Source: a virus (taxonomy: Duplodnaviria > Heunggongvirae > Uroviricota > Caudoviricetes). From it: DNA of 31,175 bases. The notes below the pieces were generated by a model. That model was not told the DNA's origin. It did no database searches and was given only the letters and a program-made list of their open reading frames with translations. The stretch spans positions 1 through 31,175 of IMG/VR virus record IMGVR_UViG_2565956711_000006; one strand, given 5' to 3'. Position numbers and translations under genes: made by a program. Shown here one piece after another: positions 2,242 through 31,175 of the stretch. Numbering within the stretch: the stretch's first letter is position 1; each line of letters opens with the position of its first letter.

Positions 2242-3435
2242 ATGGCCACTAACTACCATCACGGTGTAACCGTCACGGAAACCACCGACCTTAGCACGAT
2301 GATCACCGACATTGATTCGGCGGTGATCGGCGTTGTCTGCACCGCTGATGATGCGGACGAAACAGCGTTCCCGCTGGATACCCCTGTACTGATCACCCGC
2401 GTGGCTAACATGCTGGGCAAGGCAGGTAAAACCGGCACCCTGTTTACCACCCTGAAAGCGATTTCAGACCAGACCAGCCCGCAAACCATTGTGATCCGCG
2501 TTGCTGATGCTGCAAATATCGAACCGCCAGAAGGCGGCACCGCACAGACACAGGATCAACTGGTTATTGGCGGCACCGATGCAAACGGACGCTTTACCGG
2601 CATGTACGCGCTGCTGTCTGCCGAAATGCGCGTAGGCGTGCGCCCGCGTGTGCTGGCTGTTCCCGGTCTTGATACGGAAGCGGTGGCCGCACAACTCGGC
2701 GTCATTGCCGAAAAGCTGCGCGCGTTTGCTTACGTGGCAGCGAACGGCTGCAACAGCATCGCCGAAGTGAAGGAATACCGCGAACAGTTCTCCCAGCGTG
2801 AAATGATGGTTATCTGGCCTAATTTCATCTGCTACGACACCAACGCCGGAGCGAATGCCACCGTGCCCGTGGGTGCCCATGCGGTTGGGATGCGCGCCAA
2901 AATCGACGCAACGCAGGGCTGGCATAAAACCATTTCCAACGTGCCCGTTAATAACGTGCTGGGGATGGATCGGGATATCTATTTCACGTTGCAGGGCACC
3001 GATACCGACGCCGACGAACTGAACGCAGCAGGCGTTACCACGCTGATCAAGCAGGACGGCTACCGCATCTGGGGATCGCGTACCTGCGACGCGGAAACGT
3101 ATATCTTCGAAAGCTATACCCGAACCGCGCAGATCGTTGCGGATACCGTCGCCGAAGCACATTTCGCCTATGTTGATAAACCGCTTACCCCGTCGCTGGT
3201 AAAGGACATTGTGGACGGTATCAATAAGAAGCTGACCTCATATGTGACGGCTGGCAAGCTGCTGGGCGCCCGCTGCTGGTATGACCCGGAACCGAATACC
3301 TCGGAAACCCTGCGCAATGGTCAACTGACCATTAAGTACAACTACACCCCTGTTCCACCGCTGGAAAATCTCAGCCTGGTACAGGAGTTCACCGACGAAT
3401 ATTTCGCTACGTTTTCCAGCGCAGTGAATAACTAA
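2242..3435 (+). CDS. FI: contractile tail sheath protein gpFI
   Basis: 397-aa ORF; MATNYHHGVTVTETTDLSTMI... resembles P2 FI; followed by tube and E/E' genes. Confidence 0.92.
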   Translation: MATNYHHGVTVTETTDLSTMITDIDSAVIGVVCTADDADETAFPLDTPVLITRVANMLGKAGKTGTLFTTLKAISDQTSPQTIVIRVADAANIEPPEGGTAQTQDQLVIGGTDANGRFTGMYALLSAEMRVGVRPRVLAVPGLDTEAVAAQLGVIAEKLRAFAYVAANGCNSIAEVKEYREQFSQREMMVIWPNFICYDTNAGANATVPVGAHAVGMRAKIDATQGWHKTISNVPVNNVLGMDRDIYFTLQGTDTDADELNAAGVTTLIKQDGYRIWGSRTCDAETYIFESYTRTAQIVADTVAEAHFAYVDKPLTPSLVKDIVDGINKKLTSYVTAGKLLGARCWYDPEPNTSETLRNGQLTIKYNYTPVPPLENLSLVQEFTDEYFATFSSAVNN

Positions 3436-4313: not shown

Positions 4314-4438
4314 AAGACCTGATGGCAGATATCGCCGTCATATTCCACTGGCGGCCGGTAGAGATGGACGCCATGACGGTACAGGAAATACTGTTATGGC
4401 GTGATCAGGCGGCTGCGCGCAGTGGTGGAGATCACTAA
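3978..4438 (+). CDS. E': tail assembly chaperone gpE+E', predicted programmed -1 frameshift product
   Basis: After T6G (4238-4244) the -1 frame stays open to TAA 4436-4438, encoding ...EDLMADIAVIFHWRPVEMDAMTVQEILLWRDQAAARSGGDH, and ends 1 nt before the tape-measure ATG (4439); canonical chaperone frameshift arrangement. Confidence 0.7.
4238..4244 (+). other. slippery heptamer T TTT TTG for -1 ribosomal frameshift
   Basis: ttttttg read in E frame as ..D-F-L..; the -1 frame is open downstream. Confidence 0.7.
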
Positions 4439-7372
4439 ATGGCAGACCGCAATTTAAATATCAGGGTGGCATTCAGCGCCCTGAATAATATGTCCCGCCC
4501 TGTCAACGCGGCGCGCCAGAGTGCCGCCGCGTTGGCGTCTCAAATCAATCAGACCAAAACCAGCATCAAAGGGCTTGAGCGTCAGGCAACCAGCTTCGAC
4601 CGCCTCACCGCAGCCAATAAAAAAACCACCGAACAACTGGCCCAGGCGAAAGAACAGGCCCGGCAAATGGCGGCGGCTTATGGCCCGTTACGCCAGCGCA
4701 GCGCCGAACAGGTTGCCGCCCTCAATCAGCAACGTGCAGCCATTCGCCAGTTAACCCAGCAGCAGAAAGGTGAGCAGACGCAGCTTAATCAGTTGCGCGC
4801 CAGCTTCTACAGCGAAGGCATTGCGATCCGCAGCGCCAGCCGGGCGACGGAACAGATCAACCAGCGCACTGCGCAATACAATCGCCAGCTTGCCGAACAG
4901 CAGCGACGGCTTGACGCTGTAAACCAGGCGCAGGCCCGTTACAGCCGCGCCAAAGAAACCGGCGAAAAGATGATGAGCGGGGGAATGAAAACCGCCGCAG
5001 TGGGTGCGGCAACCCTCGCACCTGTCGCCGCTGCGGTGAAATCCTACAGCAGTCTTGAAGACGCGATGAAGGGCGTAGCCAAACAGGTAAACGGCTTGCG
5101 TGACGACAGCGGCAACCGCACCCCGCAATATGAAGAAATGCAGCGGGCGATCATGGATGCCAGCGAAAAGCTGCCAATGGCAAACGGTGCTGTTGACTAT
5201 GCCGCCCTGGTCGAAGGCGGCGCACGTATGGGCGTCGCAAACAGCGATGATCCGTGGGAAAAACAAAAAGCCGATCTGCTGTCTTTCGCCAGCATGGCGG
5301 CAAAGGCTTCTGTTGCCTTCGAACTTCCCGCCGACCAGCTTTCTGAAAGTCTCGGTAAGATTGCCGGGCTGTATAAAATCCCAACCCAAAACATTGAACA
5401 GTTAGGCGACGCCATAAACTACCTGGACGATAACGCGAAGTCGAAAGGCTCCGATATTATCGACGTGCTCCAGCGCGTTGGCGGACTTGCCAGCCAACTG
5501 GATTACAAGCAAGCCGCCGCGCTGGGTTCCACCTTTCTGACGCTTGGATCACCTGCCGAAGTTGCCGCCAGCGCAACCAATGCAATGGTGCGCGAACTAT
5601 CGATCGCCACAGTACAAAGCGATAAATTTTTTGGTGCGCTGGATGAAATCGGCGTCAATGCTGAAAAAGTCCAGAAAAGCATGTCAGTGGACGCGATGGG
5701 CACAATCATTTCAGTGCTGGAAGCGTCCAAAAAACTTGCACCAGATAAGCAGGTAGCCAACCTTACTCAAATTTTCGGTAAAGAGTTCGGCGATGATGCG
5801 CAGAAACTTGCGAACAACCTGCCCGAACTACGCCGCCAAATAGAACTGACGCAGGGCGCAGCCGCCAAAGGTTCTATGAATCGGGAATCTGATATCAATA
5901 AAGATTCCCTTTCAGCTCAGTGGCAACTGACCAAAACCGGCGCGGTTAACGCATTGAGTTCAGCAGGGGAAACGCTCCGCGAACCGCTGATGGATATCAT
6001 GCTTACCGTCAGTAAGGTAGTTGGCAGCGTCCGCCGCTGGGTTGAGGCAAATCCGGCTCTGGTTGGCTCAATCATGAAAGTCACCGCAGCCATAGGCGCG
6101 TTGCTGGTTGTCGTGGGTGGCCTGATGCTGACCATCGGCGCAGTGCTCGGCCAGATGGCACTTGTTCGCCTCAGCTTCACCACGTTGGCCGGTGAAGGAG
6201 GAATAGCGCGGCTGACTGGTGGAGTAATGCGCCTGGGTGGTGCATTCCAGTGGCTTGCTGGCTCGCCTATGCAGGCATTGTTAAGCGCCGGTCGCATGGT
6301 ATTCTGCCCGCTTATCACGCTACTGGCTGGCATTTCTGCACCCGTCTGGGGGCTGATTGCTCTCTTTGCTGCGGCAGCAGTGGCCGTCATTAAATTCTGG
6401 GAACCAATACAGGCATTTTTCACTGGTTTCTTTAACGGCATCATGACGGGCTTACAACCTGTATTTGATGCTTTCAACGCTGTTTTCGCTCCATTAGCCC
6501 CAATCTTTGACGCGATAGGCTCCGCTATTAGCGGCGTTTGGGATTGGTTTACAAAATTGCTTGAACCGATCAAATTTTCCAGCGATGCGCTAGAAACTTG
6601 CACTACTGTTGGCGAAACATTTGGGAGGGTTCTGGGTACTGCAATAAGCGGTTTGCTTTGGCCGCTACAAAAACTGATGGAGGGTGTCGGCTGGGTACTG
6701 GAGAAACTTGATCTAATTCCTGCTGGACTTGATGCAGCAAACGCCAAAGCAGAAAGCCTTAAAAAAGATCCCGTTGTCTGGGAGTGGGATCCGCAGCAAA
6801 AGAAAATGGTTAAAAAGGATTGGCACTGGTCGCCGGATAAACCAAACCAACCTAAACCGCCAAAACCACCAATAACTCCGAAGCCAGTTGGCATCCCAGA
6901 CCTTATGGGAGCGCCAAACTTAACGCCGAAGATGAGCAAGAGTCTGGATAAAATCGCAGACAACACGGGAAAAATGGCGGCAAAAGACGGCCCCGGCGAA
7001 ATCGTCTTCAAGAATAAGCAGCCCTATATCCCGATCCGGGGCGGATATTCGGAACCGCTTAAGCAGGCGCAGCGCCAGCTACCATCCCTTACCGATTGGG
7101 TGACGCAGCAGACCGGATCGCTGATCGCTTCCGTTACACCGTGGCAGGTTGAGAAGCCCGCCGCACGGGTTCCCGTTTCGGCGTCGCCCTCTGCGGCTTC
7201 CGTCGCTGCGCTAATGCCTGCGCCGGGTGGCGATGTATATAACCTTAACTTCGACTTTAGCGGCCAGAAACTGGATGAAGAAACCATTATCAGGCGCGTG
7301 CGCGAAGAACTTGCGTTAGCGAAGCAGCAAGCCGACCGGCGCAAGCGTTCCCAACTGACCGATCACGTCTAA
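4439..7372 (+). CDS. T: tail tape measure protein gpT
   Basis: 977-aa ORF, coiled-coil-rich N-terminus, hydrophobic central region, Pro-rich segment; position after E/E'. Confidence 0.9.
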   Translation: MADRNLNIRVAFSALNNMSRPVNAARQSAAALASQINQTKTSIKGLERQATSFDRLTAANKKTTEQLAQAKEQARQMAAAYGPLRQRSAEQVAALNQQRAAIRQLTQQQKGEQTQLNQLRASFYSEGIAIRSASRATEQINQRTAQYNRQLAEQQRRLDAVNQAQARYSRAKETGEKMMSGGMKTAAVGAATLAPVAAAVKSYSSLEDAMKGVAKQVNGLRDDSGNRTPQYEEMQRAIMDASEKLPMANGAVDYAALVEGGARMGVANSDDPWEKQKADLLSFASMAAKASVAFELPADQLSESLGKIAGLYKIPTQNIEQLGDAINYLDDNAKSKGSDIIDVLQRVGGLASQLDYKQAAALGSTFLTLGSPAEVAASATNAMVRELSIATVQSDKFFGALDEIGVNAEKVQKSMSVDAMGTIISVLEASKKLAPDKQVANLTQIFGKEFGDDAQKLANNLPELRRQIELTQGAAAKGSMNRESDINKDSLSAQWQLTKTGAVNALSSAGETLREPLMDIMLTVSKVVGSVRRWVEANPALVGSIMKVTAAIGALLVVVGGLMLTIGAVLGQMALVRLSFTTLAGEGGIARLTGGVMRLGGAFQWLAGSPMQALLSAGRMVFCPLITLLAGISAPVWGLIALFAAAAVAVIKFWEPIQAFFTGFFNGIMTGLQPVFDAFNAVFAPLAPIFDAIGSAISGVWDWFTKLLEPIKFSSDALETCTTVGETFGRVLGTAISGLLWPLQKLMEGVGWVLEKLDLIPAGLDAANAKAESLKKDPVVWEWDPQQKKMVKKDWHWSPDKPNQPKPPKPPITPKPVGIPDLMGAPNLTPKMSKSLDKIADNTGKMAAKDGPGEIVFKNKQPYIPIRGGYSEPLKQAQRQLPSLTDWVTQQTGSLIASVTPWQVEKPAARVPVSASPSAASVAALMPAPGGDVYNLNFDFSGQKLDEETIIRRVREELALAKQQADRRKRSQLTDHV

Positions 7373-21664: not shown

Positions 21665-22714
21665 TTGAGCGGCAAAAAAAAATTCAGGGCGCCAACTGCT
21701 GCGCCAGCCAGCACGGCCAGCAACGCAGCCACCCCGCTGGAAAGCGTGGAATCTTTCAGCTTTGGCGACCCGATCGCAGTCAACGATCGCGCGTCTCTTA
21801 TGGAGTGCCTCGAATGCCATAACAATGGCCGCTGGTATGAACCACCGATCAGCCCCTACGGGCTGGCGCGCATGTTCGACGTTGCCGCCTATCACCAGTC
21901 ACCGCTGATATTTAAACGCAATGTTATCGCCAGTTGCTACATACCGCACCCGCTGTTGACCCGGCAGGAGTTCACCGCCTGGGTGCAGGATTATTTAATT
22001 TTCGGTAACTGTTACATGGAATGCCGCCGCAACCGACTCGGCCAGCCGATCGAGCTGCGGCACAGCCAGGCAAAATATACGCGGCGCGGCATAGACCCGG
22101 CGCAATTCTGGTTTGTTCCGCGCTACGTTGACGATCACGCGTTCGAACCGGGCAGCGTCTGCCAGATCAAGAACCCCAGCCCGCACCAGGAGATCTACGG
22201 TGCGCCGGAATATCTGGCCGCGCTACAAAGCGCCATGCTGAACGGTGAAGCAACGGTGTTCCGCCGCAACTACTACATTAACGGCAGTCATGCGGGTGTG
22301 ATCGTCTACCTCACTGACCCGGTGGCGAATAATAACGATGTGGAAAAGCTTAAGAAGTCGCTGAAAGATGCACGCGGCAACGGTGCTTTTAAAAACCTGT
22401 TTGTCTACGCGGCGGGCGGGAAAAAAGACGGCCTGCAAATTATGCCGTTCAGCCAGGTGGCGGCGAAGGATGAGTTTACCGGCATCAAAGACGCCACCCG
22501 CGACGACCTGTTAGCCGCGCACCGCGTGCCGCCCGTTCTGATGGGGGTAATGCCGAATAACTCCGGTGGCTTCGGCGACGTAGAGAAAGCGGCGAAGGTG
22601 TTTTCCATCAACGAACTGGCCCCGATACAAGAAAGCCTGAAAGAGTTAAACGACTGGCTGGGGATCGACGTGGTGCGCTTCAACCCTTACGCACTGTTGC
22701 AGGCAGCAATCTGA
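21665..22714 (+). CDS. Q: portal protein gpQ
   Basis: 349 aa; starts at TTG 21665 directly after the terminase TAA, with SD GGAGGAG 8 nt upstream. Confidence 0.88.
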   Translation: MSGKKKFRAPTAAPASTASNAATPLESVESFSFGDPIAVNDRASLMECLECHNNGRWYEPPISPYGLARMFDVAAYHQSPLIFKRNVIASCYIPHPLLTRQEFTAWVQDYLIFGNCYMECRRNRLGQPIELRHSQAKYTRRGIDPAQFWFVPRYVDDHAFEPGSVCQIKNPSPHQEIYGAPEYLAALQSAMLNGEATVFRRNYYINGSHAGVIVYLTDPVANNNDVEKLKKSLKDARGNGAFKNLFVYAAGGKKDGLQIMPFSQVAAKDEFTGIKDATRDDLLAAHRVPPVLMGVMPNNSGGFGDVEKAAKVFSINELAPIQESLKELNDWLGIDVVRFNPYALLQAAI

Positions 22715-22784
22715 CGCCAGCCCGGACACACCCACCACCACCGCGCAAAGGCCTACACGGCCATAACTGACCACACCGCACGTA

Positions 22785-22822
22785 AGCCCCTCAGCAGCCT
22801 GCTGGCAGGGGCTTTTCTTTTT
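22785..22822 (+). terminator. candidate intrinsic terminator after the P-Q operon
   Basis: GC-rich imperfect hairpin agcccctcagcagcctgctggcaggggc followed by ttttctttttcc. Confidence 0.45.
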
Positions 22823-22924
22823 CCTCAACCCACCACGGCGAACCGAAAACGACGTAGCAGCGAGGCGCAGCGGCGCGAAAATCGGCGCAGATAATACCGA
22901 CCCTATCCCACCCCTCAGCGCGCG

Positions 22925-22943
22925 CTCATTCCCCCGCCTCGCC
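22925..22943. other. candidate cos (cohesive end) site
   Basis: The minus strand reads GGCGAGGCGGGGGAATGAGC; the first 12 nt match my recollection of the P2 19-nt cohesive end (GGCGAGGCGGGGAAAGCAC); lies just past the Q 3' end as in P2. Confidence 0.5.
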
Positions 22944-23092
22944 CGCACGCAGAAACCCCGCTTTTTTGTGCAAATGTGCAGACCAGCGGAAGGCCCGCCC
23001 CGTCTGGTCTGCTCCTGAAAAATCACCATCATAAAATTTGTGCGGTTTTGCGCGAAATTTTGCACTGATTTTCAGCACTCCCGCAAAGCCAT

Positions 23093-23809
23093 TCACTGGC
23101 CTGCGTTAACCATGGCGGCGCGGCAGGCGTTCCATCCAATTTTTTGCTGAACGGTGCCGAATTGGCACAGCATTGCAGCGACCGCCATGAATGAGCCGAA
23201 CTCGTAATAGTTTGCCGGATCATTTCCCTGGTAATGACCCCCAACATGTTCAGCCCACTGCCCAAGTGTCCAGTTGAAGCGTTCGCTATGTTGCTCGTCC
23301 GGCAGCGATACCGGCGCTGGCTCAGTTTTCCAGCCGTGATACCACATAAATGCACAGTAAGCGGCAACATCCCGGGGGTCTCCCTTAGCTATATGCTGTT
23401 GAAAGTCTGCCTGGCATTGGCTTGGCCAACCATCTTGTTTCCAGTCCGCGTCATAGCCATATTTTAATTGAGCCTTGTACAACTTCTCAGCCAGGGCGGA
23501 GCTGAAGTCGGTCACCAGTTTCAGCGTATCAGGATGAAGCTCTGCCGGAACTACCGGCGCTGGCGTGGCGGAGTATAGCGGGGCGATATTTCTTTCCAGA
23601 TCGGTAATTACGCTCCATACAGGAATAGATTCAACACCCTGCTTAGCCATATCGCGGTAACTGTCTGCATAGGCCAGCACGGGATTTCGCCCTGACTCCT
23701 CCGCTTCGAGCGATGCCAGCGCGATACGCGCCAGCTCCTCCACCTCATCAAAGTTATATCCGCCGCCTGCTGCAATTTTTGCTGCGCGTTCTCTGGTAAT
23801 TTTGCTCAT
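23093..23809 (-). CDS. hypothetical protein, 238 aa, downstream of replication gene A
   Basis: Start at ATG 23809 (MSKITRERAAK...) with SD AGGAG; no family recognised; last gene before cos. Confidence 0.6.
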   Translation of the reverse strand: MSKITRERAAKIAAGGGYNFDEVEELARIALASLEAEESGRNPVLAYADSYRDMAKQGVESIPVWSVITDLERNIAPLYSATPAPVVPAELHPDTLKLVTDFSSALAEKLYKAQLKYGYDADWKQDGWPSQCQADFQQHIAKGDPRDVAAYCAFMWYHGWKTEPAPVSLPDEQHSERFNWTLGQWAEHVGGHYQGNDPANYYEFGSFMAVAAMLCQFGTVQQKIGWNACRAAMVNAGQ

Positions 23810-23861
23810 GCTGTCACTCCTGTTTCTTCTGAAAATGAATAAGCGAAGCCCCGGCACGCTG

Positions 23862-26219
23862 TTATGACGCACCGTTAAAGGCTTTTTTCATTCGGTTAAT
23901 AAGACTATTTGTCTGTTGCTTCGCCGCCATCACCTGCGACGGCAGCTTATCCAGCCCCGACGCGGCGCGGTTGCGCGATACCAGCCGCCCATCCTGCACT
24001 GTCATAACAAGATCGCCGCACGCCACTGACGCACCGGCCATCATCGATCTGACCATTCCGGCGCTGGCATCAATCCCACGCAGCGCCAGCAGTTCACTGA
24101 TCTGCTGCTCTTTCACGGATATCCCGGCCCCGTCTTCCCGTTCCGGTGGCCGTTTTTTCCGCTTACTTCGCACATCGTCACTTAGCCTCTGTGCCAGTTC
24201 CCGCTTTTCCTGCCGTGAAAGAGCATCAAAATTCACCGTCTCGCCCACTTCGTGATCGGCATGTTCAAGACCGTCAGCACCTGTCGCGGGATCCCGCGTA
24301 CAGTTATTGACAGAACTCCGAGGGGCGGCGTTGCCGCCTGAAAAACCAACGTCAACGGCCACACCGTCAGCGCTCTGGCGCTTCGGCACGATTTTGTATT
24401 GAGTGGTGCGGGTGAAGATCAAAGAGTCATTGCCCGTAATCGGGCAGTAAATACCAGTGATTCGCTGGACGTTATCGCCGTAGGCGTTGCCGTTTTCAGT
24501 GGTTTCATAATTCAGACGGATGCGCAGCTTATCGCGCTCAACCAACGGGCCACCCTGGGCTAATACGTAGTTATCCCATTCGCCACCGTTAGCGGCCTGC
24601 CGGGCGGTTTCCAGTTCAGGGTGTAACACCAGTTCGCGATCGCCCAAGCGGCGAAGTTCGCGATATACCGTGACCGGCGCACCGCCGATCTGCTGAAACT
24701 GACGAATAGCCCAGCGCGATGCCCACGCGCTAACGCGGAGTGACATTTCTTTCAGGTCTTCCCCGGTTTCGTCGTCCTTCTCACCATCCAGCGCGAAGCC
24801 GTCGATATTCTTCGAAATGTATTTCGCTATGTAGCCAGTTGCGCTGCCGTGGGCATCGTCGATCGGCACGACCTGAAAGCGGTTTTCCTGCGCTCCCGGT
24901 TCGTTGCCGTCTTCTTTCAGGGCATATTTACGGAAGATTTCGCGCGCCTGCTCGACGCATTCCGGGCGCATAAAAAGAAGCAAATGCCAGTGTGGCGTTG
25001 CATCGTGGTGCGGTTCGACCACGCGGAAACCAAAGACGCGGATCCCTTTTCTCTTCCATGCGGCGCGGGTTCTCGCCCAGACTTTGCAAAGATATTGCTG
25101 TGTCTCACGCGGCGACGCGCCACAGTATTTGTTATTACGGCGCCCGTTATGCTGCATAGCGTGATAGCGGGAAGGCGCTGTCAGCGTGTAGAAGTCACCG
25201 GCCAGCCCTTCCAGCTTCGCCAGATCTTCAAATCCGCGCATTCTCGTCATGAGTTCGCGGCGACGGTTGGCCGGATTGGCAACACTGCCGGCGACTTTAT
25301 CGATCAGCGAAATGCGCTCGCCCGTGTCCTGGTCTTCCAGTTCCATAGCCTTGAGGTATTCACGGTTAGCTTTTTTCTGGGCCAGCCATTCCGTAAGGCA
25401 CGGGGCGCTACTGTATGGGGAGGATTTTTTCTGGACGTATCCCGCTGCGATCATCAAATGCTCACGCCACCGGGCATGGATACGGCGCAGGCGGTTTAAC
25501 CACCACTGCGGTGACTCAAGACGGAGAACTGCGCGTAACGCGTCCTCCGCTTCAAGTTCTTCATTGCAATAAGCTGTCCAACCGGGGATCGGCGTTTTCA
25601 GATGCACTGCCAGCGATGCAATACGGCCATAGCCAGAAAGCGCCGCGAACTCAGGATCGCCGGTGCGCACCAACTGGTGATCGGACTCGCGTATAAACTC
25701 GCTCGTAAAGATATCGGCAAGCGTATAAGCCAGTCTTTTTAACTCTTTTTTCCCTGCCCAGAGCATACGGAAAAGCTGATCGCGAATTGGCAGCAGAATG
25801 CCGGGCATCACAGTATCAGGCTGGTAAACACTGTTCACGCTATCAATACGCGTTAATACGTGGCGCTCAAAGGTGTTAAGCAGCCAGTGATCTGCCGCTT
25901 TGCGGTCTTTCACATCCAGCGCATCAAGCTTCGCTGCAAAGTGGCGGCGGACATATTGCGGAAGAGAAGCCAGACGGCGACGCAGCAGCTTACTGCGTTC
26001 CGGCTTTTCGTCCTCCGCTACCAGTTCACTGAACGCAATATGCTTACGCGTGCCGTCCGGCATGAGATAGTCGAAACCATCCAGCCCCGGCGCTACATCA
26101 ACGCCAATCGGCTGGTATGATTTGTTCCCGCCATAAGCGTAAGGGATAGCATTGTCAGTGCTACCCGGATACGGTGGAGGTGGAGAAGGGGCGCGACGGC
26201 CACGGGTTGCCGTGGTCAT
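23862..26219 (-). CDS. A: replication initiation protein gpA (rolling-circle nicking endonuclease)
   Basis: 785 aa; contains ATPHWHLLLF (HUH-type) and GYIAKYISKN (catalytic Tyr) motifs typical of P2 A family. Confidence 0.92.
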   Translation of the reverse strand: MTTATRGRRAPSPPPPYPGSTDNAIPYAYGGNKSYQPIGVDVAPGLDGFDYLMPDGTRKHIAFSELVAEDEKPERSKLLRRRLASLPQYVRRHFAAKLDALDVKDRKAADHWLLNTFERHVLTRIDSVNSVYQPDTVMPGILLPIRDQLFRMLWAGKKELKRLAYTLADIFTSEFIRESDHQLVRTGDPEFAALSGYGRIASLAVHLKTPIPGWTAYCNEELEAEDALRAVLRLESPQWWLNRLRRIHARWREHLMIAAGYVQKKSSPYSSAPCLTEWLAQKKANREYLKAMELEDQDTGERISLIDKVAGSVANPANRRRELMTRMRGFEDLAKLEGLAGDFYTLTAPSRYHAMQHNGRRNNKYCGASPRETQQYLCKVWARTRAAWKRKGIRVFGFRVVEPHHDATPHWHLLLFMRPECVEQAREIFRKYALKEDGNEPGAQENRFQVVPIDDAHGSATGYIAKYISKNIDGFALDGEKDDETGEDLKEMSLRVSAWASRWAIRQFQQIGGAPVTVYRELRRLGDRELVLHPELETARQAANGGEWDNYVLAQGGPLVERDKLRIRLNYETTENGNAYGDNVQRITGIYCPITGNDSLIFTRTTQYKIVPKRQSADGVAVDVGFSGGNAAPRSSVNNCTRDPATGADGLEHADHEVGETVNFDALSRQEKRELAQRLSDDVRSKRKKRPPEREDGAGISVKEQQISELLALRGIDASAGMVRSMMAGASVACGDLVMTVQDGRLVSRNRAASGLDKLPSQVMAAKQQTNSLINRMKKAFNGAS

Positions 26220-26395
26220 ATTTGAACTACATCCCCTACTTTAACGGCTTTGGCTTCCTCTTCTGATTTCTTCAGAATTGTGGTTATTGACTCCCTTCCA
26301 TAAGCTGTTACTTTCGCCTCAACCAACCAATACGGCACAATCTCGCCACGACTCACGCTTATGATTTCAACGATCCAGGCGTCTACAAGATTCAT
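26216..26395 (-). CDS. hypothetical small protein (59 aa) coupled between dam and A
   Basis: Not in the ORF track (below cut-off); ATG overlaps dam stop (TAATG) and its TGA overlaps the A ATG (ATGA); MNLVDAWIVEIISVSRGEIVPYWLVEAKV... Confidence 0.45.
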   Translation of the reverse strand: MNLVDAWIVEIISVSRGEIVPYWLVEAKVTAYGRESITTILKKSEEEAKAVKVGDVVQI

Positions 26396-27366
26396 TAAAA
26401 CGCCTCCATATCGTCAAACGTGCCTGCCGCAACCATCGCGTTGTAAGTCGCATCACCCATCACGGCGCCACAATCAGGGCAACCGCCGCCGTAACGCCCG
26501 CAGCAGTCGCAGACAGGCAGCACGCCGATCACTTCTTTGGCCTTCTGGCGGTTGTCTTTGTCAGTGCTGACGGAACGTTGCACGCTGATTTCGTGCATCT
26601 TGAAAGGCTGATAAATCGCGCGGGTGGCTTCGGTGTCGCTGTTGGAAATGACAACCTTCACGCCATGCTTACGGTTAACTTCCAGCAGTGCCTGGACTAA
26701 CTGGCGGTGGTTGTCTTCCGTGAATGGTTCGGTGTGGTATTGGGTAAAATCGGCTGTTTTGCTTTCAGGCAGGTAAGGCGGATCGCAGTAAACGAGAACA
26801 TCGCCACCCGTGACGACCTGTAGAGAACGCTGGAACGGCGCGCAAAGAAATATTGCCTTTGTATCGTTGGCCTTTTCGGCAAACAGGCGGATTTCATTTT
26901 CAGGAAAGTAGACGCTCTTATACTTGCCAAACGGCACGTTAAAGCCGGTCTTACGGCTGTAACGGCATAAGCCGTTATAACCGTGGCGGTTCAGATACAG
27001 GAATTGAGCAGCACGCATGATGCGCGCCATTTCGACGCCATAACGCAACCCACAGCTTTTTACCGTACATACCTGCTTATTGAACGCGGCGCGGACTTCG
27101 TTGTACCCCTGCGGGCTGTTCTTGCTGTTGAACAGTTCGCGGGCCGCATCGATCACTAAGTCCGGGTAACGGGTGACTTTCCGATAAAGGTTAATAAGAT
27201 CCGGGTTGATATCAGCCAGCACATAGCGGCGGTACTCAGTCGCCAGAAATACCGATGCGCCGCCTACGAACGGTTCGATCAGGCAGTCGGCTTTAGGAAG
27301 GTGCGGCAGCAGGTCAGGAAGGACACGGGTTTTACCCCCTGCCCATTTGATGAACGGGCGGATCAT
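26395..27366 (-). CDS. dam: DNA adenine methyltransferase (Dam family) with Cys-rich C-terminal extension
   Basis: MIRPFIKWAGGK N-terminus, FVGGASV AdoMet motif, DPPY catalytic motif; extra C-terminal about 45 aa with CDCCGRYGGGCPDC. Confidence 0.85.
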   Translation of the reverse strand: MIRPFIKWAGGKTRVLPDLLPHLPKADCLIEPFVGGASVFLATEYRRYVLADINPDLINLYRKVTRYPDLVIDAARELFNSKNSPQGYNEVRAAFNKQVCTVKSCGLRYGVEMARIMRAAQFLYLNRHGYNGLCRYSRKTGFNVPFGKYKSVYFPENEIRLFAEKANDTKAIFLCAPFQRSLQVVTGGDVLVYCDPPYLPESKTADFTQYHTEPFTEDNHRQLVQALLEVNRKHGVKVVISNSDTEATRAIYQPFKMHEISVQRSVSTDKDNRQKAKEVIGVLPVCDCCGRYGGGCPDCGAVMGDATYNAMVAAGTFDDMEAF

Positions 27367-27367
27367 T

Positions 27368-27580
27368 TTACAGGACTCCGTAAGGGGAAGATGGAACAGC
27401 CGGACGCTGCAACGCCGTGGTAAGGCGCTGGCGCATGTCGTCGATAAAGCAGGAAACAGAGGGATCGTCAGAAGAAAGGGTTAACTCACCATCGCGGCGG
27501 GTTTTAATCGTCAGCCCTTCACGCTCAACAGCAGGTAAGAGAACGTGCAGGATGAAGTTATATTGATCGCGTTTAGTCAT
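27368..27580 (-). CDS. hypothetical protein (70 aa)
   Basis: ORF with SD GAGG 10 nt upstream; stop abuts the dam ATG; no family recognised. Confidence 0.5.
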   Translation of the reverse strand: MTKRDQYNFILHVLLPAVEREGLTIKTRRDGELTLSSDDPSVSCFIDDMRQRLTTALQRPAVPSSPYGVL

Positions 27581-27622
27581 GATTCGAAGCCTCAGAAATT
27601 GCCGGGTTTCCCCGGCAATCTG

Positions 27623-27805
27623 TTACTGGTGATCCGCTGATTGGTTAGCTGACTTGAGGGCAGGCCAGACAAGGAGAAGAAGAGCGCCAACGAAGAAGGC
27701 GTCGCCAATCACCGAAAGCAGGTAGCTGGTGAAATCCACTGCTACGACCATGAAGGCCAACAGCAGGGCCAGCGCCGGACGTAGTGAATCCAGCACGCGC
27801 AGCAT
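27623..27805 (-). CDS. small hydrophobic protein with two predicted TM helices (60 aa)
   Basis: MLRVLDSLRPALALLLAFMVVAVDFTSYLLSVIGDAFFVGALLLLVWPAL; ATG overlaps the TerB-like stop (TGATG). Confidence 0.55.
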   Translation of the reverse strand: MLRVLDSLRPALALLLAFMVVAVDFTSYLLSVIGDAFFVGALLLLVWPALKSANQSADHQ

Positions 27806-28239
27806 CAGAGATAATCCTCAACACGCAGCCCCAGACGGCGCCCGACCTCTTCCAGCACCTTCTGTTCTTCTGGTTCGATCTGGCCGTCCGCTTCGGCGAT
27901 AGTCAGCATGTTGACGAAGACTTCTTCGGCTTCTTTCGGATCGTTTTTGATGTCGTCGATTTCGCGCAAAATGTTCATGCGGCCAACGCGGAAGCCAGCT
28001 TCAAGCTGTTCCGTATAGCGGTTGATGGTGGATGTAATTTCATTGCCGAAATGCGCAAGGCGCGGGTTAGAGCGGATAAGCTGATCCAGCTTGCTGGTTT
28101 CTTCTTTTTCGATCTCGCCATCGGCGGCAGATACCAAAAGACAACCGCCGACAATAGCTTCCATAAGATCGCGATTTTCCACTTTCTTAAGTTCAACTTT
28201 TGCCGCTGCTACTTTTTTTCCAAACAGTTTATTAAACAT
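27805..28239 (-). CDS. TerB-like domain protein
   Basis: Start at ATG 28239 (MFNKLFGKK..); two repeats of the TerB-type helical motif (..GGCLLVSAADGEIEKEE.. and ..TIAEADGQIEPEEQKVL..) resembling remembered TerB; the plus-strand antisense ORF 27784..28257 is low-complexity. Confidence 0.65.
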   Translation of the reverse strand: MFNKLFGKKVAAAKVELKKVENRDLMEAIVGGCLLVSAADGEIEKEETSKLDQLIRSNPRLAHFGNEITSTINRYTEQLEAGFRVGRMNILREIDDIKNDPKEAEEVFVNMLTIAEADGQIEPEEQKVLEEVGRRLGLRVEDYL

Positions 28240-28274
28240 GCTATTTATCCTTTTTAGGATGAGTGAAAGCGCCA

Positions 28275-28290
28275 TCACTTAATTAAGTGA
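28275..28290. promoter_or_regulatory. 16-bp perfect palindrome, candidate operator
   Basis: tcacttaattaagtga is its own reverse complement; sits in the AT-rich gap 36-51 bp upstream of the TerB-like start. Confidence 0.4.
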
Positions 28291-28333
28291 CGACAGTGAA
28301 GACTGTTTTTTAATTACTATTTAACTGACGTTG

Positions 28334-28564
28334 TTAGCCGATTAAATCTCTCAAAGAATTAACAAGGTTAAAAAGCAATCCTTTGTTTATCTTCTTCGTA
28401 TAAACAAAGGGCTTACTCATTCCCTTAATAAATTGAACCTTGCTAGGCTCAGGTTTAAAGAATTGCCCGTCTGGTGTTTCCAGCCAGCCGCGTGAGTTTT
28501 TGAAGTGTGTAAACTGGCACCCGTGCTTAAGCAGGCTTGCCAGTGATGGGCCTTCATCGTGCAT
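28334..28564 (-). CDS. hypothetical protein (76 aa)
   Basis: ATG 28564 (MHDEGPSLASLLKHG...) with SD AGGGGG 6 nt upstream. Confidence 0.5.
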   Translation of the reverse strand: MHDEGPSLASLLKHGCQFTHFKNSRGWLETPDGQFFKPEPSKVQFIKGMSKPFVYTKKINKGLLFNLVNSLRDLIG

Positions 28565-28805
28565 TACTGCCCCCTTGCTTATACATCTGATCAACCGTGC
28601 GCATGGCTTCCGCTAAAGCAAAGTCACGCCCGTAATAATCGCCATTGCTGGAAATACGATAAGAGTGCTTAAACGTAAATGGATTACGCGGGCATTTCTG
28701 AATAGTGAAGCCACGATATAAATATGAATGACGACTTAACTGTATTAATTGCACAGCCACAAAAGCCCCCTCACATTCCCAATTTAAGCAATTCACCATC
28801 AACAT
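28554..28805 (-). CDS. hypothetical protein (83 aa), weakly supported
   Basis: Fills the gap between the flanking small genes but has no SD before either candidate ATG (28805/28799). Confidence 0.3.
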   Translation of the reverse strand: MLMVNCLNWECEGAFVAVQLIQLSRHSYLYRGFTIQKCPRNPFTFKHSYRISSNGDYYGRDFALAEAMRTVDQMYKQGGSNAR

Positions 28806-28974
28806 GGCGGGCCACGTCTTTGGTTATTTTCTTAATCAGCTTTTTATCCCTGATCATAAACTCGCCGCTATTGGTGCGAATCATGAAGCCCGTTTGCATA
28901 TCTTTTAAATGGGTGTCCAGAATGTCGTTGCATTCACGCACCCGGTTTTCGTGGTTGGCTGTTTTCTGGCTCAT
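28771..28974 (-). CDS. hypothetical protein (67 aa) immediately downstream of cox
   Basis: ATG 28974 (MSQKTANHENRVRECNDILD...) with SD GAGG; occupies the position of P2 orf78. Confidence 0.5.
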   Translation of the reverse strand: MSQKTANHENRVRECNDILDTHLKDMQTGFMIRTNSGEFMIRDKKLIKKITKDVARHVDGELLKLGM

Positions 28975-28984
28975 CGCGATAACC

Positions 28985-29266
28985 TCAAAGACCGATCCAC
29001 AGCAACCAAGCGTCGCGCTGCTCTCTCGGACGGTTGTAGTAGGCGTCACGCATTGCGCGGTTGAACTCAGGAATATAGATCCAGTTCTCAGCACGGGCGC
29101 CCAGGCTGTCCGGGTTCTTCCACGGGATGATCGGCAACTTACCGTCTTCAATCATGCTCTTAACCGTGGCGGGCTTCTTACCGATTAACTCGGCAAATTT
29201 AGGGTATGGAACCGCGTCAACGGCATGACGCACTTCAATGAACCCCTCTAACTCTTTGTCTGTCAT
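28985..29266 (-). CDS. cox: Cox/Apl-type excisionase and early-promoter regulator
   Basis: Start at ATG 29266 (MTDKELEGF..) with SD GAGAGGTGA; ..VPYPKFAELIGKKPATVKSMIEDGKLPII..RDAWLLWIGL resembles remembered P2 Cox. Confidence 0.72.
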   Translation of the reverse strand: MTDKELEGFIEVRHAVDAVPYPKFAELIGKKPATVKSMIEDGKLPIIPWKNPDSLGARAENWIYIPEFNRAMRDAYYNRPREQRDAWLLWIGL

Positions 29267-29362
29267 AGCGTTATCACCTCTCATTGAAGATATGCCGGGA
29301 TTTTTAGCCACGCCCGGCGCGTGGTATTCTGGAGTTTCCACACAACCAGAAAGGAGATCTTT

Positions 29363-29599
29363 ATGTCTCAGAAAGAAGTACCTATCTACATTCCTGCTGA
29401 ACTTGAATACCTCGTTGCTAATGACCTGGCTTGCTTACGCTTCCACTACCACTTAGCTACACCGACAAAACTGCCCGAAGCAGGCGAGTTGTTTACTGGT
29501 TTAACCATTGAGCAAGCAAAAGACACCGTAACCTTCCTCCAGCAATACATTGCTAAAGCTGAACTTGCTTCTTCACTGGCCCCGAAACGGAGCCACTAG
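29363..29599 (+). CDS. hypothetical protein (78 aa) between cox and C, on the C/int strand
   Basis: ATG 29363 with strong SD AAGGAG 6 nt upstream; MSQKEVPIYIPAELEYLVANDLACLRFHYHL...; no family recognised. Confidence 0.55.
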   Translation: MSQKEVPIYIPAELEYLVANDLACLRFHYHLATPTKLPEAGELFTGLTIEQAKDTVTFLQQYIAKAELASSLAPKRSH

Positions 29600-29804
29600 T
29601 TTTAACCGTCCCTGCATAACGTCCATTCCGGAAATAACTACGGCGGAATTCAGCAACATGGATTCCGTCACTTCTGTTGCCCCGCTCAAGTCTTCCACTC
29701 ATTTGTGCTAATCTCCGCATTAGCGCTAGGCGCTTATTTCGGCTTGTAACTGCTTATATTGGCGGTTGCTCATGGTAGAGATTACCACCCTTAAGGAGAA
29801 TGTT

Positions 29805-30125
29805 ATGGTAGAGATCCCTACCCCGTCAAGCGGCGTGGGTGAAAAAATCAGAGCTATCAGGGATGCGGAGGGGTTAACAAGGCAGCAATTCTTTGAATTA
29901 ACTGGAATACCTGCTGGCACGCAGAAGTATTACGAGACAGGAAGAGTGGAGAGTATTGGTAGCGATATCTTGCTTAAGATCACTCAGCATTCACGTTTCG
30001 CAAAATACACGCTCTGGCTTATGACTGATAAGACCGCCCCTCAAGCTGGTCAAATCGCACCGGCCCTCGCACACATTGGGCCAGAGTCAACTGGATCAGA
30101 CCGCTCCGAGAAACAAACTGGTTAA
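29805..30125 (+). CDS. C: immunity repressor, P2 C family
   Basis: ATG 29805 with SD AAGGAGA; C-terminal ..FAKYTLWLMTDKTAPQAGQIAPALAHIGPE..KQTG matches remembered P2 C (..FTKYTLWFMTNQIAPESGQIAPALAHFG..KTG). Confidence 0.75.
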   Translation: MVEIPTPSSGVGEKIRAIRDAEGLTRQQFFELTGIPAGTQKYYETGRVESIGSDILLKITQHSRFAKYTLWLMTDKTAPQAGQIAPALAHIGPESTGSDRSEKQTG

Positions 30126-30194
30126 CTGTTTATAAACATTACATTTTCACTATCTGTTATCAGGATGGGGAAATAAACGCCGGAGGGCTTTCTT

Positions 30195-31175
30195 ATGTCG
30201 ATTAAGAAGCTCGAAGGTGGTCAATATGAAGTGGACGTATGGCCGCGCGGACGTAACGGAAAACGTATCCGCAGGCGATTTGAGAAGAAACAAGAGGCAG
30301 TTCTTTTTGAGCGTTATGTATTAGCCAACGCCGACAAAAAAGAATGGCTGGGCGCGAGCGTTGACCGCCGCACCTTAAGCGAGTTGTTAGATACCTGGTG
30401 GCTGCTATATGGACAGACTCAGGAAAATGGCGAGATTGAAAAGCGGCACCTGAATAAAACAATCAGGGCGCTTGGTGATCCAGCCGTTAACCGACTGAAC
30501 AAGCGAATGATTGCACAGCACCGAAGCCAACGGCTGGAAGACGGTATCAGCGCAGCAACGATCAACCGGGATATTTACCGTTTGTCCGGGATGTTCAGCA
30601 CGTTGATAAAGCTGGAAGAGTTCAGAAAGGAAAACCCCTGTAAGGGTCTGGAACCACTGAAAGAAGCGCCGCCAGCTATGACTTATCTCGCCAAATCAGA
30701 GATCAGCAAATTGCTGGATACTCTGACCGGCGACGATCGACGTGTAGCACTGCTATGCCTCAGCACTGGCGCACGCTGGGGTGAAGGGAGCACGCTGCGA
30801 GGTGAGCAGGTTAATCACGGGCGTGTGACGTTCCTTAAGACCAAAAATGGGAAAAAGCGCACGGTGCCGATATCGGAAGAACTGGAGAAAGAGATCAAGA
30901 CCAGCGACACCGGGCCACTGTTCAAAGTTGACTATGAAAACTTCTGCGAACGGCTCAGGCTGGTTAAGCCTGACTTACCACGCGGGCAGGCCACGCATGT
31001 GCTTAGACATACGTTCGCAAGCTGGTTCATGATGAACGGGGGGAACATTATTGCGTTACAGCAAATTCTGGGGCACGCCAGCATACAACAGACGATGGTT
31101 TACGCTCACCTTGCACCTGATTACCTGCAACACGCAGTAACGTTAAACCCTCTTGGCGGCGGGCTGATGGTGTGA
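30195..31175 (+). CDS. int: tyrosine integrase, P2 Int family
   Basis: 326 aa; MSIKKLEGGQYEVDVWPRGRNGKRIRRRF.. and C-terminal ..HVLRHTFASWFMMNGGNIIALQQILGHASIQQTMVYAHLAPDYL with the R..H-X-X-R..Y catalytic pattern; SD GGAGGG; stop is the last codon of the window. Confidence 0.92.
   Translation: MSIKKLEGGQYEVDVWPRGRNGKRIRRRFEKKQEAVLFERYVLANADKKEWLGASVDRRTLSELLDTWWLLYGQTQENGEIEKRHLNKTIRALGDPAVNRLNKRMIAQHRSQRLEDGISAATINRDIYRLSGMFSTLIKLEEFRKENPCKGLEPLKEAPPAMTYLAKSEISKLLDTLTGDDRRVALLCLSTGARWGEGSTLRGEQVNHGRVTFLKTKNGKKRTVPISEELEKEIKTSDTGPLFKVDYENFCERLRLVKPDLPRGQATHVLRHTFASWFMMNGGNIIALQQILGHASIQQTMVYAHLAPDYLQHAVTLNPLGGGLMV

What the first reader, a model, noticed from the sequence alone, without database searches (positions are those of the whole stretch)
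27623..28333. TerB-like protein coupled to a small two-helix membrane protein in the early operon
A 145-aa TerB-like gene is translationally coupled (TGATG) to a 60-aa protein with two predicted TM helices, and is preceded by a visibly AT-rich spacer. TerB-like domains are not part of the P2 core gene set as I know it. This looks like inserted cargo with a possible membrane-stress, exclusion or defence role.
Basis: partly seen in the sequence, partly recalled or inferred. Interest (0 to 1): 0.6.

Follow-up and report, generated by a model that had tools for sequence, protein, structure and literature searches.

The report
Phage tciA–tciB (TerB) accessory cassette
The two genes are a copy, carried by a P2-like E. 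coli prophage, of the already named but never functionally tested phage cassette tciA–tciB (a TerB-fold protein plus a tiny membrane protein), so the finding is real but ordinary.

Summary
On the minus strand, a 144-aa TerB-family gene (28239..27805) overlaps by one base (TGATG) a 60-aa hydrophobic DUF3927 gene (27805..27623). A 94-bp spacer of 34% GC precedes them.

The pair is the tciA–tciB cassette named by homology in phage P1. RefSeq annotates it as "TerB family protein / DUF3927 family protein" in an E. coli chromosome that matches the 1.4 kb around the pair exactly.

It is accessory cargo. Phage phiT5282H has the same early-operon gene order without the pair. The pair recurs in P2-like, P1-like and lambdoid phages, and in about 5% of complete E. 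coli genomes. All 80 viral loci examined keep the DUF3927 gene directly after tciA.

The AT-rich spacer is not part of the insert; it is also present in relatives that lack the pair.

No function has been tested. I found no promoter consensus before tciA, no match to known defence-system models, and TerB genes also occur in phages described as virulent. These points favour expression with lytic genes over a lysogen defence role.

Phage TerB genes repeatedly sit next to membrane proteins, including a Na+/Ca2+-exchanger homologue. I therefore infer a membrane-bound complex that handles cations. Interest is low to moderate.

The parts
27805..28239 (-). tciA: 144-aa soluble TerB-fold protein. It has two conserved acidic motifs (AADGEIEKEE at residues 38-47, EADGQIEPEE at 116-125) and a basic N-terminal helix.
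27623..27805 (-). tciB: 60-aa hydrophobic DUF3927 protein. Its start codon shares one base with the tciA stop codon (TGATG).
   Evidence: Pfam DUF3927 33 bits, phrog_1470 E=5e-19. It is 47% identical to the reference P1 TciB. Invariant residues are R9, V23, D24, F25, S31 and D35. Hydropathy. AF2 gives a single helix, residues 2-58. A DUF3927 ORF directly follows tciA in 80 of 80 viral loci.
27596..27622 (-). GC-rich hairpin (AGAUUGCCGGG-GAAA-CCCGGCAAUUU) in the 42-nt gap between tciB and orf70. It lies in the inserted DNA and is followed by the ribosome-binding site (GAGG) of orf70. It has no proper U tract.
   Evidence: RNA fold -25 kcal/mol, z = -3.8. The terminator scan does not call it. 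The match to SEN5 ends at 27583.
28240..28333 (-). 94-nt AT-rich spacer (34% GC) between fil and tciA. It is backbone sequence, shared with relatives that lack tciAB.
   Evidence: Composition. Alignment with phiT5282H and SEN5.
28270..28295 (-). Conserved 11-bp hairpin or palindrome within the spacer. The core, TCACTTAATTAAGTGA, is at 28275-28290.
   Evidence: Unique in the window. Nine sequence variants keep the stem, with 2 compensatory pairs. Also present in phiT5282H and SEN5 upstream of orf70.
28247..28260 (-). Small hairpin (AUCCU-AAAA-AGGAU) that would sequester the Shine-Dalgarno sequence of tciA.
   Evidence: RNA fold. Read by eye and not tested: the CX12-type loci have CCC-AAAAAA-GGG at the same place.
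28334..28564 (-). Upstream neighbour: homologue of the phage 186 filamentation protein Fil (76 aa from the ATG).
   Evidence: Pfam Phage_186_Fil E=1.2e-21, phrog_816. Fil precedes tciA in nearly all P2-like loci.
27368..27580 (-). Downstream neighbour: orf70 (phrog_21140, function unknown). In phiT5282H and SEN5 it directly follows the fil spacer.

Best explanation
**What it is (shown).** This is a P2-like-prophage copy of the two-gene phage cassette tciA–tciB. It is a dispensable accessory insert in the early lytic operon, placed between the fil-downstream spacer and the start of orf70.
- TciA is a soluble, all-helical TerB-fold protein with two conserved acidic A-D-G-x-I-x-x-x-E motifs.
- TciB is a 60-aa inner-membrane protein. 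Its invariant D24, S31 and D35 fall on one face of a helix.

**How it most likely works (inferred).**
- The two products form a complex at the cytoplasmic face of the inner membrane.
- TciB supplies the membrane element, either as an anchor or as a small oligomeric cation-conducting pore.
- TciA supplies a cytoplasmic cation-binding sensor or regulator.
- The pair is transcribed together with the early lytic genes, so it acts in induced or infected cells rather than in the quiescent lysogen.
- It changes the ionic or membrane state of the cell. That could help phage development, block incoming phage DNA, or block pore-forming colicins.
- It is not needed for plaque formation.
For: **Identity**
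- Family and fold matches.
- 91% identity to the TciA/TerB proteins of records OP279344.1 (P1) and P7, and 90% to D6.
- The reference P1 record annotates tciA, tciB and tciC 'by homology'.
- RefSeq annotates the same two genes as TerB family / DUF3927 in E. coli EC09, whose chromosome matches the 1.4 kb around the pair exactly.

**Accessory insert**
- phiT5282H, SEN4 and SEN5 match both flanks but lack the pair.
- tciABC is a highly variable region in P1-like phage-plasmids (PMC9603915).
- It scored non-essential in a P1 CRISPRi screen (PMC10695390).

**Obligate partnership**
- The genes share a one-base overlap.
- A DUF3927 ORF directly follows tciA in 80 of 80 viral loci.
- The pairing survives TciA divergence to 33-35% identity.
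- It occurs in three phage types: P1-like, P2-like and lambdoid.

**Link to the membrane and to cations**
- In Pseudomonas prophages and in phage AF, TerB is followed by an unrelated 67-aa single-TM protein; in the prophages the called genes overlap.
- In one group of closely related Vibrio phages, TerB is followed by a 360-aa Na+/Ca2+-exchanger-family protein (PF01699, E=4e-28).
- From established knowledge: in canonical ter operons TerB accompanies the membrane protein TerC, and DjlA fuses a TM helix to a TerB-like domain.
- The invariant D24, S31 and D35 of TciB lie within 40 degrees of one another on a helical wheel.

**Lytic-phase expression**
- The pair is on the same strand as the early operon, between short gaps, with no sigma-70 consensus and no canonical terminator.
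- In lambdoid phages it sits between Q and the lysis genes.
- No promoter consensus was found before tciA in P1.
- tciA is listed among the differentially expressed genes in a P1vir infection time course.
- TerB genes occur in phages described as virulent or lacking a lysogeny module.
Against: - No experiment on TciA or TciB exists in the literature I could search. Every mechanistic step is inference.
- Metal binding by TerB is a published prediction, not something shown for this protein.
- AlphaFold gives TciB as one long helix. Neither a hairpin nor an oligomeric pore is demonstrated.
- The promoter scan is a crude consensus match. A weak or activator-dependent promoter in the conserved spacer would not have been detected.
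- In Pseudomonas prophages the pair lies between the repressor and the integrase, on the repressor's strand. That position is compatible with expression in the lysogen.
- The neighbour associations come from a handful of lineages.
Confidence: 0.5

Rival explanations
1. Lysogen-protecting defence or superinfection exclusion. The prophage expresses tciAB from its own promoter, and the pair blocks other phages or colicins, as the plasmid ter operon does (the Phi and PacB phenotypes).
For: - TerB domains occur in the experimentally validated defence systems Shango and Bunzi.
- The R478 ter cluster confers phage inhibition and colicin resistance (cited).
- The pair is variable cargo.
- In some P2-like lineages a terminator-like hairpin with a T run lies just upstream of tciA, which suggests a separate transcription unit.
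- In Pseudomonas prophages the pair is on the repressor side.
Against: - PADLOC gives only a non-significant hit (E=0.003, 14.7 bits).
- No helicase or ATPase partners are present.
- The pair is embedded in the repressed early operon with no promoter consensus.
- The spacer belongs to the backbone.
- TerB genes also occur in phages described as virulent, which have no lysogen to protect.
- The Phi and PacB phenotypes need several ter genes, not terB alone (established knowledge; also argued).
Confidence: 0.2
2. Host-takeover factor acting on cell division or on envelope-stress signalling, working alongside the adjacent Fil protein. This is the 'inhibition of cell division' reading of the tci name.
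For: - Fil precedes tciA in nearly all P2-like loci.
- fil, tciA and tciB align as one block at 76% identity in a divergent P2-like lineage whose flanks do not align.
- The TerB-like domain of DjlA sits in a membrane co-chaperone that influences Rcs signalling.
- A P1vir transcriptome preprint groups tciABC with cell-division control genes.
Against: - Fil occurs without tciAB (phiT5282H, SEN5).
- tciAB occurs with no fil detected beside it in P1-like and lambdoid phages and in a few P2-like loci.
- The 'cell division' label in P1 comes from homology with the whole ter cluster only.
Confidence: 0.13
3. Replication accessory: a membrane tether or organiser for phage DNA replication.
For: The pair lies next to replication or nucleotide-metabolism genes in several contexts:
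- dam and repA in P2-like phages;
- dmt and ban in P1;
- ThyX and DNA polymerase in PMBT3.
Against: - The pair is absent from the closest relatives, which have the same replication genes.
- It scored non-essential in P1.
- In lambdoid phages it sits between Q and the lysis genes.
- No DNA-binding domain was detected.
Confidence: 0.07
4. Lysogenic conversion to tellurite or oxidative-stress resistance.
For: The family name, and database annotations reading 'tellurite resistance'.
Against: - No terC, terD, terE or terZ is nearby.
- TerB alone is not expected to give resistance (established knowledge; argued).
- The operon position points to lytic expression.
Confidence: 0.04
5. Anti-defence decoy: a free TerB domain that interferes with host defence systems or sensors that use TerB domains (Shango, Bunzi).
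For: - TerB-only genes are widespread in phages described as virulent.
- TerB is a component of the defence systems Shango and Bunzi.
Against: - There is no direct evidence.
- It does not explain the strict coupling to a membrane partner.
- I made no test of whether the E. coli hosts of this prophage carry Shango or Bunzi.
Confidence: 0.05

Closest known systems
tciA–tciB–tciC operon of phage P1 and its relatives P7 and D6 (named by homology; function untested)
   Same: - A TerB-family first gene of about 142-144 aa, immediately followed by an overlapping DUF3927 gene of 54-60 aa.
- The window's TciA is 91% identical to the allele in records OP279344.1 (P1) and P7, and 90% to D6.
- TciB has the same invariant VDF(T/S)S…S…D core.
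- Dispensable and variable.
   Different: - There is no third gene. P1's tciC encodes a 35-aa single-TM protein; here tciB is followed after 42 nt by orf70.
- The setting is the early operon of an integrated P2-like prophage, not the tRNA/ban region of a phage-plasmid.
- The reference P1 allele is only 33% (TciA) and 47% (TciB) identical.
TerB of the terZABCDE(F) tellurite-resistance / phage-inhibition / colicin-resistance clusters (R478; K. pneumoniae KP-TerB, PDB 2jxu)
   Same: The same Pfam family and fold, with the same paired acidic motifs.
   Different: - About 25% identity only.
- No TerC, TerD, TerE or TerZ partners are present.
- The partner is instead a 60-aa DUF3927 protein.
- The genes are phage-borne and sit within a lytic operon.
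TerB-containing anti-phage systems Shango (TerB + ATPase + helicase) and Bunzi
   Same: They contain a TerB domain. In Bunzi the TerB protein itself carries TM helices, so TerB is associated with the membrane there too.
   Different: - No ATPase or helicase is present.
- No PADLOC model matches.
- The system has two small genes only.
DjlA (TM helix + TerB-like domain + J domain)
   Same: - A TM element plus a cytoplasmic TerB-like domain, here split over two genes.
- There is a weak NCBIfam hit to the DjlA model over the TerB region (E=2.4e-5, far below the cut-off).
   Different: There is no J domain, and the TM part is a separate and unrelated polypeptide.
Late-expressed cargo genes between Q and the lysis genes of lambdoid phages (for example stx)
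   Same: In Evi, JLK-2012 and Klebsiella phage 1 LV-2017, tciAB occupies exactly that slot. In Evi it is flanked by terminator-like sites.
   Different: In this window the cassette is in the early operon of a P2-like phage. It brings no detectable promoter and only a hairpin without a U tract.

Membership tests
TerB family (Pfam PF05099) | Profile match above the curated gathering score | tested here: met
   54 bits against a cut-off of 24.4, covering residues 27-143.
TerB family (Pfam PF05099) | TerB-like all-helical fold | tested here: met
TerB family (Pfam PF05099) | Duplicated acidic motif A-D-G-x-I-x-x-x-E, the predicted metal-chelating site | tested here: met
   Residues 38-47 (AADGEIEKEE) and 116-125 (EADGQIEPEE). 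A39, G41, E47, A115, G119 and E125 are invariant; D40 and D118 are conserved in at least 90% of 30-31 homologues. Metal binding itself was not tested.
Canonical ter (terZABCDE) tellurite-resistance system | Co-located terC, terD, terE and terZ genes | tested here: not met
   The neighbours are fil, DUF3927, orf70, dam and repA. No Ter-family hits were found among them.
Canonical ter (terZABCDE) tellurite-resistance system | Tellurite resistance, phage inhibition and colicin resistance phenotypes | not testable with these tools
   These require wet-lab assays.
Phage tciA–tciB(–tciC) cassette | TerB-family gene directly followed by an overlapping DUF3927 gene on a phage genome | tested here: met
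   One-base overlap. DUF3927 33 bits against a cut-off of 25, phrog_1470 E=5e-19. The same arrangement is seen in P1, in lambdoid phages and in 80 of 80 viral loci.
Phage tciA–tciB(–tciC) cassette | Third small TM gene, tciC | tested here: not met
   Only 42 nt separate tciB from orf70. tblastn with P1 TciC finds it only in P1-like loci. tciC is also absent from the D6 and lambdoid versions, so it is not universal.
Known anti-phage defence systems (PADLOC models, including Shango and Bunzi) | Match to a defence-system protein model and presence of the partner genes (ATPase, helicase) | tested here: not met
   The only hit is PDC-S48, at E=0.003 and 14.7 bits with no matched stretch. The neighbours give nothing.
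Moron (independently transcribed insert between genes that are adjacent in relatives) | Inserted between genes that are adjacent in related phages | tested here: met
   fil and orf70 are adjacent in phiT5282H, SEN4 and SEN5.
Moron (independently transcribed insert between genes that are adjacent in relatives) | Own promoter and own terminator | tested here: inconclusive
   No sigma-70 consensus lies upstream, and the upstream spacer is backbone sequence. The downstream hairpin is strong but has no U tract. Transcript mapping is needed.
Moron (independently transcribed insert between genes that are adjacent in relatives) | Deviant base composition | tested here: not met
   tciA is 49% GC and tciB 57% GC, against 54% for the window.

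The most novel reading that the evidence does not exclude
TciA–TciB is a minimal TerB-gated membrane switch. TciB oligomerises into a small cation-conducting pore lined by the invariant D24, S31 and D35, and the TerB protein senses a cytoplasmic cation or membrane signal and gates it. During lytic growth or induction this gives the phage a Rex- or Imm-like device that excludes other phages or collapses the membrane. It would be the first assigned mechanism for a stand-alone TerB domain and for DUF3927. It would also explain why phage TerB genes are paired with different membrane proteins (DUF3927, a 67-aa single-TM protein, a Na+/Ca2+ exchanger).
Probability: 0.12. Interest if true: 0.65.

Novelty: new member of a known kind. 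Interest (0 to 1): 0.27.

Why it matters
The locus itself adds little. The genes already have names (tciA, tciB), Pfam families and RefSeq annotations.

The residual value is that no function has ever been tested for a cassette that is common. It is present in about 5% of complete E. coli genomes and in three unrelated temperate phage types.

The TerB domain also appears in validated anti-phage systems, where its role is unknown. The comparison made here gives a concrete and cheap hypothesis to test: TerB is always next to a membrane protein, once a cation exchanger, and TciB has an invariant acidic stripe.

A positive result would give the first mechanism for TerB-only proteins.

Tried and rejected
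- **Defence-system models.** PADLOC gave no significant hit for the pair or its neighbours.
- **CI operator.** I tested whether the 16-bp palindrome in the spacer is a CI operator shared with the immunity region. It is unique in the window, so I rejected this.
- **Rfam.** A scan of 27000-30200 found nothing credible, only a chance snoRNA hit at E=0.33.
- **Apparent TerB–DUF3927 fusion.** Protein P0026 is a frameshifted metagenome artefact, not a natural fusion.
- **Search for DUF3927 loci in genomes.** The first alignment was too divergent to search with. A narrower one confirmed only 2 loci, probably because the query is short and hydrophobic. Both loci had a TerB gene upstream.
- **tblastn with TciB against phages.** Nothing was found, probably because of the low-complexity filter. 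HMM and ORF analysis were used instead.
- **Papers.** The P1 genome paper (PMC523184) and the Aravind-lab Ter paper (PMC4104200) are not held. What I say about them rests on GenBank notes, on citations in other papers, and on my own knowledge.
- **Correction of an early assumption.** The 91% match is not to the reference P1 sequence. That allele is only 33% identical.
- **C1 operator in P1.** The C1-operator-like sequence upstream of tciA in P1-like loci matches my remembered consensus at only about 11 of 17 positions, so I do not use it as evidence.

Full report
**Observation**

The region holds two genes on the minus strand.
- A 144-aa ORF lies at 28239..27805. It starts at an ATG that has AGGA 9 nt upstream.
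- A 60-aa ORF lies at 27805..27623.
- The junction reads CTC-TGA-TG, so the stop of the first gene and the start of the second share one base.
- A 94-nt spacer (28240-28333) of 34% GC separates the first gene from the upstream gene. The window average is 54% GC.

**Identity of the proteins**

The 144-aa protein is a TerB-family protein.
- It matches Pfam TerB (PF05099) at 54 bits against a cut-off of 24.4, and phrog_632 'tellurite resistance' at E=5e-62.
- A profile built from 31 homologues hits the solved K. pneumoniae TerB (2jxu) at E=3e-14.
- The two acidic motifs AADGEIEKEE and EADGQIEPEE are invariant or nearly so among homologues.

The 60-aa protein matches Pfam DUF3927 at 33 bits against a cut-off of 25, and phrog_1470 'TciB-like' at E=5e-19.

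**The cassette is already named**

- The window's TciA is 91% identical to the TciA/TerB proteins annotated in records OP279344.1 (P1) and P7, and 90% to D6. In the P1 record, tciA is followed by an overlapping tciB and by tciC.
- The reference P1 sequence (AF234172) carries a divergent allele: TciA is 33% identical and TciB 47% identical.
[quoted passage not shown] The names therefore rest on similarity only.
- RefSeq annotates the same two genes as 'tellurite resistance TerB family protein' and 'DUF3927 family protein' in E. coli EC09. The 1.4 kb around the pair matches that chromosome at 100%, in a prophage integrated next to cpxP.

**Context**

The window is a P2-like (Peduoviridae) prophage. 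The local gene order is:
- integrase and an HTH repressor on the plus strand;
- then, on the minus strand, the early operon: cox, a small ORF, DUF4761, fil, tciA, tciB, orf70, a Dam-type methylase, orf59 and the replication endonuclease.

**Cargo or core?**

- Enterobacter phage phiT5282H has exactly this gene order without the pair.
- Salmonella phages SEN4 and SEN5 match both flanks (95% and 89% identity) and also lack it. The pair is therefore accessory.
- An alignment of the fil-downstream spacers gave an unexpected result. The AT-rich spacer and its conserved core are present whether the next gene is tciA or orf70.
- The inserted DNA is therefore essentially the two ORFs plus 42 nt carrying a GC-rich hairpin and the orf70 ribosome-binding site. 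The AT-rich spacer is backbone sequence and says nothing about foreign origin.
- The base composition of the two genes (49% and 57% GC) is not deviant.

**Distribution**

| Data set | Result |
|---|---|
| 80 IMG/VR viral loci encoding a close TciA | All have a DUF3927 ORF immediately downstream. About 43 are P1-like (upl–tciABC–ban) and about 37 are P2-like (cox–DUF4761–fil–tciAB–…dam–repA). |
| A second P2-like lineage, 76% identical | Keeps fil–tciA–tciB as one aligned block while the flanks differ |
| Lambdoid phages Evi, JLK-2012, Klebsiella phage 1 LV-2017 | tciA–tciB lies between Q and the lysis genes. In LV-2017 the tciB ORF is unannotated. |
| 5426 complete E. coli genomes | 254 carry tciAB-like DNA, about half on plasmids and half on chromosomes |
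| Two loci found through TciB | Both have a TerB gene directly upstream. In one (Scandinavium sp.) TciA is only 35% identical to the window's. |

The partnership of the two genes is therefore strict and old, and the cassette moves between phage families.

**What the literature says**

- tciABC scored non-essential in a P1 CRISPRi screen (PMC10695390).
- It is one of eight highly variable regions of P1-like phage-plasmids (PMC9603915).
- It is regarded as an untested moron in D6-like elements (PMC6799933).
- TerB genes have been remarked on in Klebsiella prophages, and in Salmonella and Pseudomonas phages described as virulent, without functional work.
- TerB domains are components of the validated defence systems Shango and Bunzi, where their role is unknown and membrane surveillance has been suggested.

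**When is it expressed?**

Several observations point to the lytic programme rather than the lysogen.
- The pair is on the early-operon strand, between short gaps. The region has no sigma-70 consensus and no canonical terminator on the coding strand near the pair.
- The hairpin after tciB is strong (-25 kcal/mol, z = -3.8) but lacks a U tract.
- No promoter consensus precedes tciA in P1, and the reference P1 record annotates none for it. Evi has none between tR' and tciA, where the pair is bracketed by terminator-like sites downstream of Q.
- TerB genes also occur in Erwinia jumbo phages and in Salmonella, Pseudomonas and Vibrio phages. The authors of PMBT3 and of FSL SP-058/076 describe those phages as virulent.

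Two caveats apply.
- The promoter scan is crude.
- In Pseudomonas prophages the pair lies between the repressor and the integrase, on the repressor's strand. That position would allow expression in the lysogen.

**What could it do?**

The most consistent feature across phages is that TerB sits next to a membrane protein.
- In enterobacterial temperate phages the partner is DUF3927.
- In Pseudomonas prophages it is an unrelated 67-aa single-TM protein whose called gene overlaps the TerB gene. The same protein is encoded, unannotated, after TerB in phage AF.
- In one group of closely related Vibrio phages it is a 360-aa Na+/Ca2+-exchanger-family protein (PF01699, E=4e-28).
- From established knowledge, canonical TerB accompanies the membrane protein TerC, and DjlA fuses a TM helix to a TerB-like domain.
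- PMBT3 is an exception: there TerB stands alone beside ThyX.

TciB itself has invariant R9, V23, D24, F25, S31 and D35. D24, S31 and D35 fall within 40 degrees of one another on a helical wheel, so they form a polar, acidic stripe.

Its number of membrane spans is unsettled.
- Hydropathy shows two hydrophobic stretches split by VDFTS.
- AlphaFold gives one continuous helix.
- The first stretch is short for a span.

**Best explanation and rivals**

My best explanation is a small inner-membrane complex. TciB is the membrane element (an anchor or a small cation-conducting oligomer) and TciA is a cytoplasmic cation-binding regulator. It acts in induced or infected cells.

My confidence differs by step:
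- identity of the cassette, about 0.95;
- accessory insertion, about 0.9;
- the two products forming a membrane complex, about 0.6;
- a role in handling cations, about 0.35.

The biological pay-off is open. It could be exclusion of other phages or colicins during the lytic cycle, or support of phage development.

The rivals are listed with their tests in the Rival explanations section: lysogen defence, a cell-division or envelope effect together with Fil, a replication tether, tellurite resistance, and an anti-defence decoy.

**Verdict**

This is a real feature, correctly described, and correctly read as TerB-like cargo. It is also a member of an already named and widely annotated phage cassette whose function is simply untested. 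The suggestion of a defence role in the lysogen has no support from these analyses. Novelty: new member of a known kind. Interest: low to moderate.

Noticed in passing
window 28262-28300 (minus strand); also L089 1760-1800 and L002 about 3300-3345: The spacer downstream of fil holds a conserved structured element, an 11-bp stem with an AAUU or UAUU loop around the palindrome TCACTTAATTAAGTGA. Nine sequence variants keep the stem, with two compensatory pairs (for example TCATTT/AAATGA in L014). It is present whether the next gene is tciA or orf70, is unique in the window, and is not followed by a U tract. It could be an RNA processing or attenuation signal of the P2-like early operon, or a protein-binding palindrome. 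Its function is unknown.
   Followed up: partly
window 28247-28260 (minus strand): A small hairpin (AUCCU-AAAA-AGGAU) would sequester the tciA Shine-Dalgarno sequence. By eye, divergent lineages have CCC-A6-GGG at the same place, and the phages that lack tciAB have a comparable pairing around the orf70 Shine-Dalgarno sequence. This may be translational control of whichever gene follows the spacer.
   Followed up: no
L090-L094 (Pseudomonas prophages), about 4435-4644; L086 (phage AF), about 1950-2150: In Pseudomonas prophages the TerB gene is followed by an overlapping 67-aa gene with no Pfam match. The protein has one N-terminal TM helix and a conserved tail, C-x-WYGYQTER…VGCMV…GWVPR. The same ORF is present but unannotated after TerB in phage AF. 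It is a non-homologous counterpart of TciB, and in the prophages a CsrA homologue follows it.
   Followed up: partly
L087 1999-3081 (Vibrio phage D505 and close relatives): In one group of closely related Vibrio phages, TerB is directly followed by a 360-aa Na+/Ca2+-exchanger-family membrane protein (PF01699, E=4e-28). A phage-encoded cation exchanger beside TerB is unusual and bears on what TerB does.
   Followed up: partly
L098 (reference P1, AF234172) compared with L001 (record OP279344.1, labelled P1): Two records both labelled phage P1 carry very different tciA alleles. One is 33% and the other 91% identical to the window's protein, while the two TciB proteins are nearly the same. In a Scandinavium genome (L096) a 35%-identity TciA is paired with a 74%-identity P2-type TciB. 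The two genes therefore appear to have been reassorted between cassettes.
   Followed up: partly
L061, L062, L074, L077-L079; L066, L068, L082, L083 (about 140 nt upstream of tciA): Other P2-like lineages have quite different sequences upstream of tciA. These include terminator-like GC hairpins with T runs, and CCGGG…CCCGG hairpins that resemble the one downstream of tciB in the window. The cassette may be a separate transcription unit there.
   Followed up: no
window 23093-23872 (minus strand) and 22646-23370: Between the replication endonuclease and the portal gene lies a 259-aa ORF, with two smaller overlapping ORFs. This position corresponds, as I recall, to the tin/old cargo locus of P2. 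None has a Pfam or PADLOC match. RefSeq annotates a truncated hypothetical pseudogene at the corresponding place in E. coli EC09.
   Followed up: partly
window 26395-27366 (minus strand) compared with L095 19111-20067: The Dam-type methylase is an intact 323-aa ORF in the window. In E. coli EC09, which matches the tciAB region exactly, it is annotated as two pseudogene fragments. This is either a real difference between strains or an assembly error in that record.
   Followed up: no
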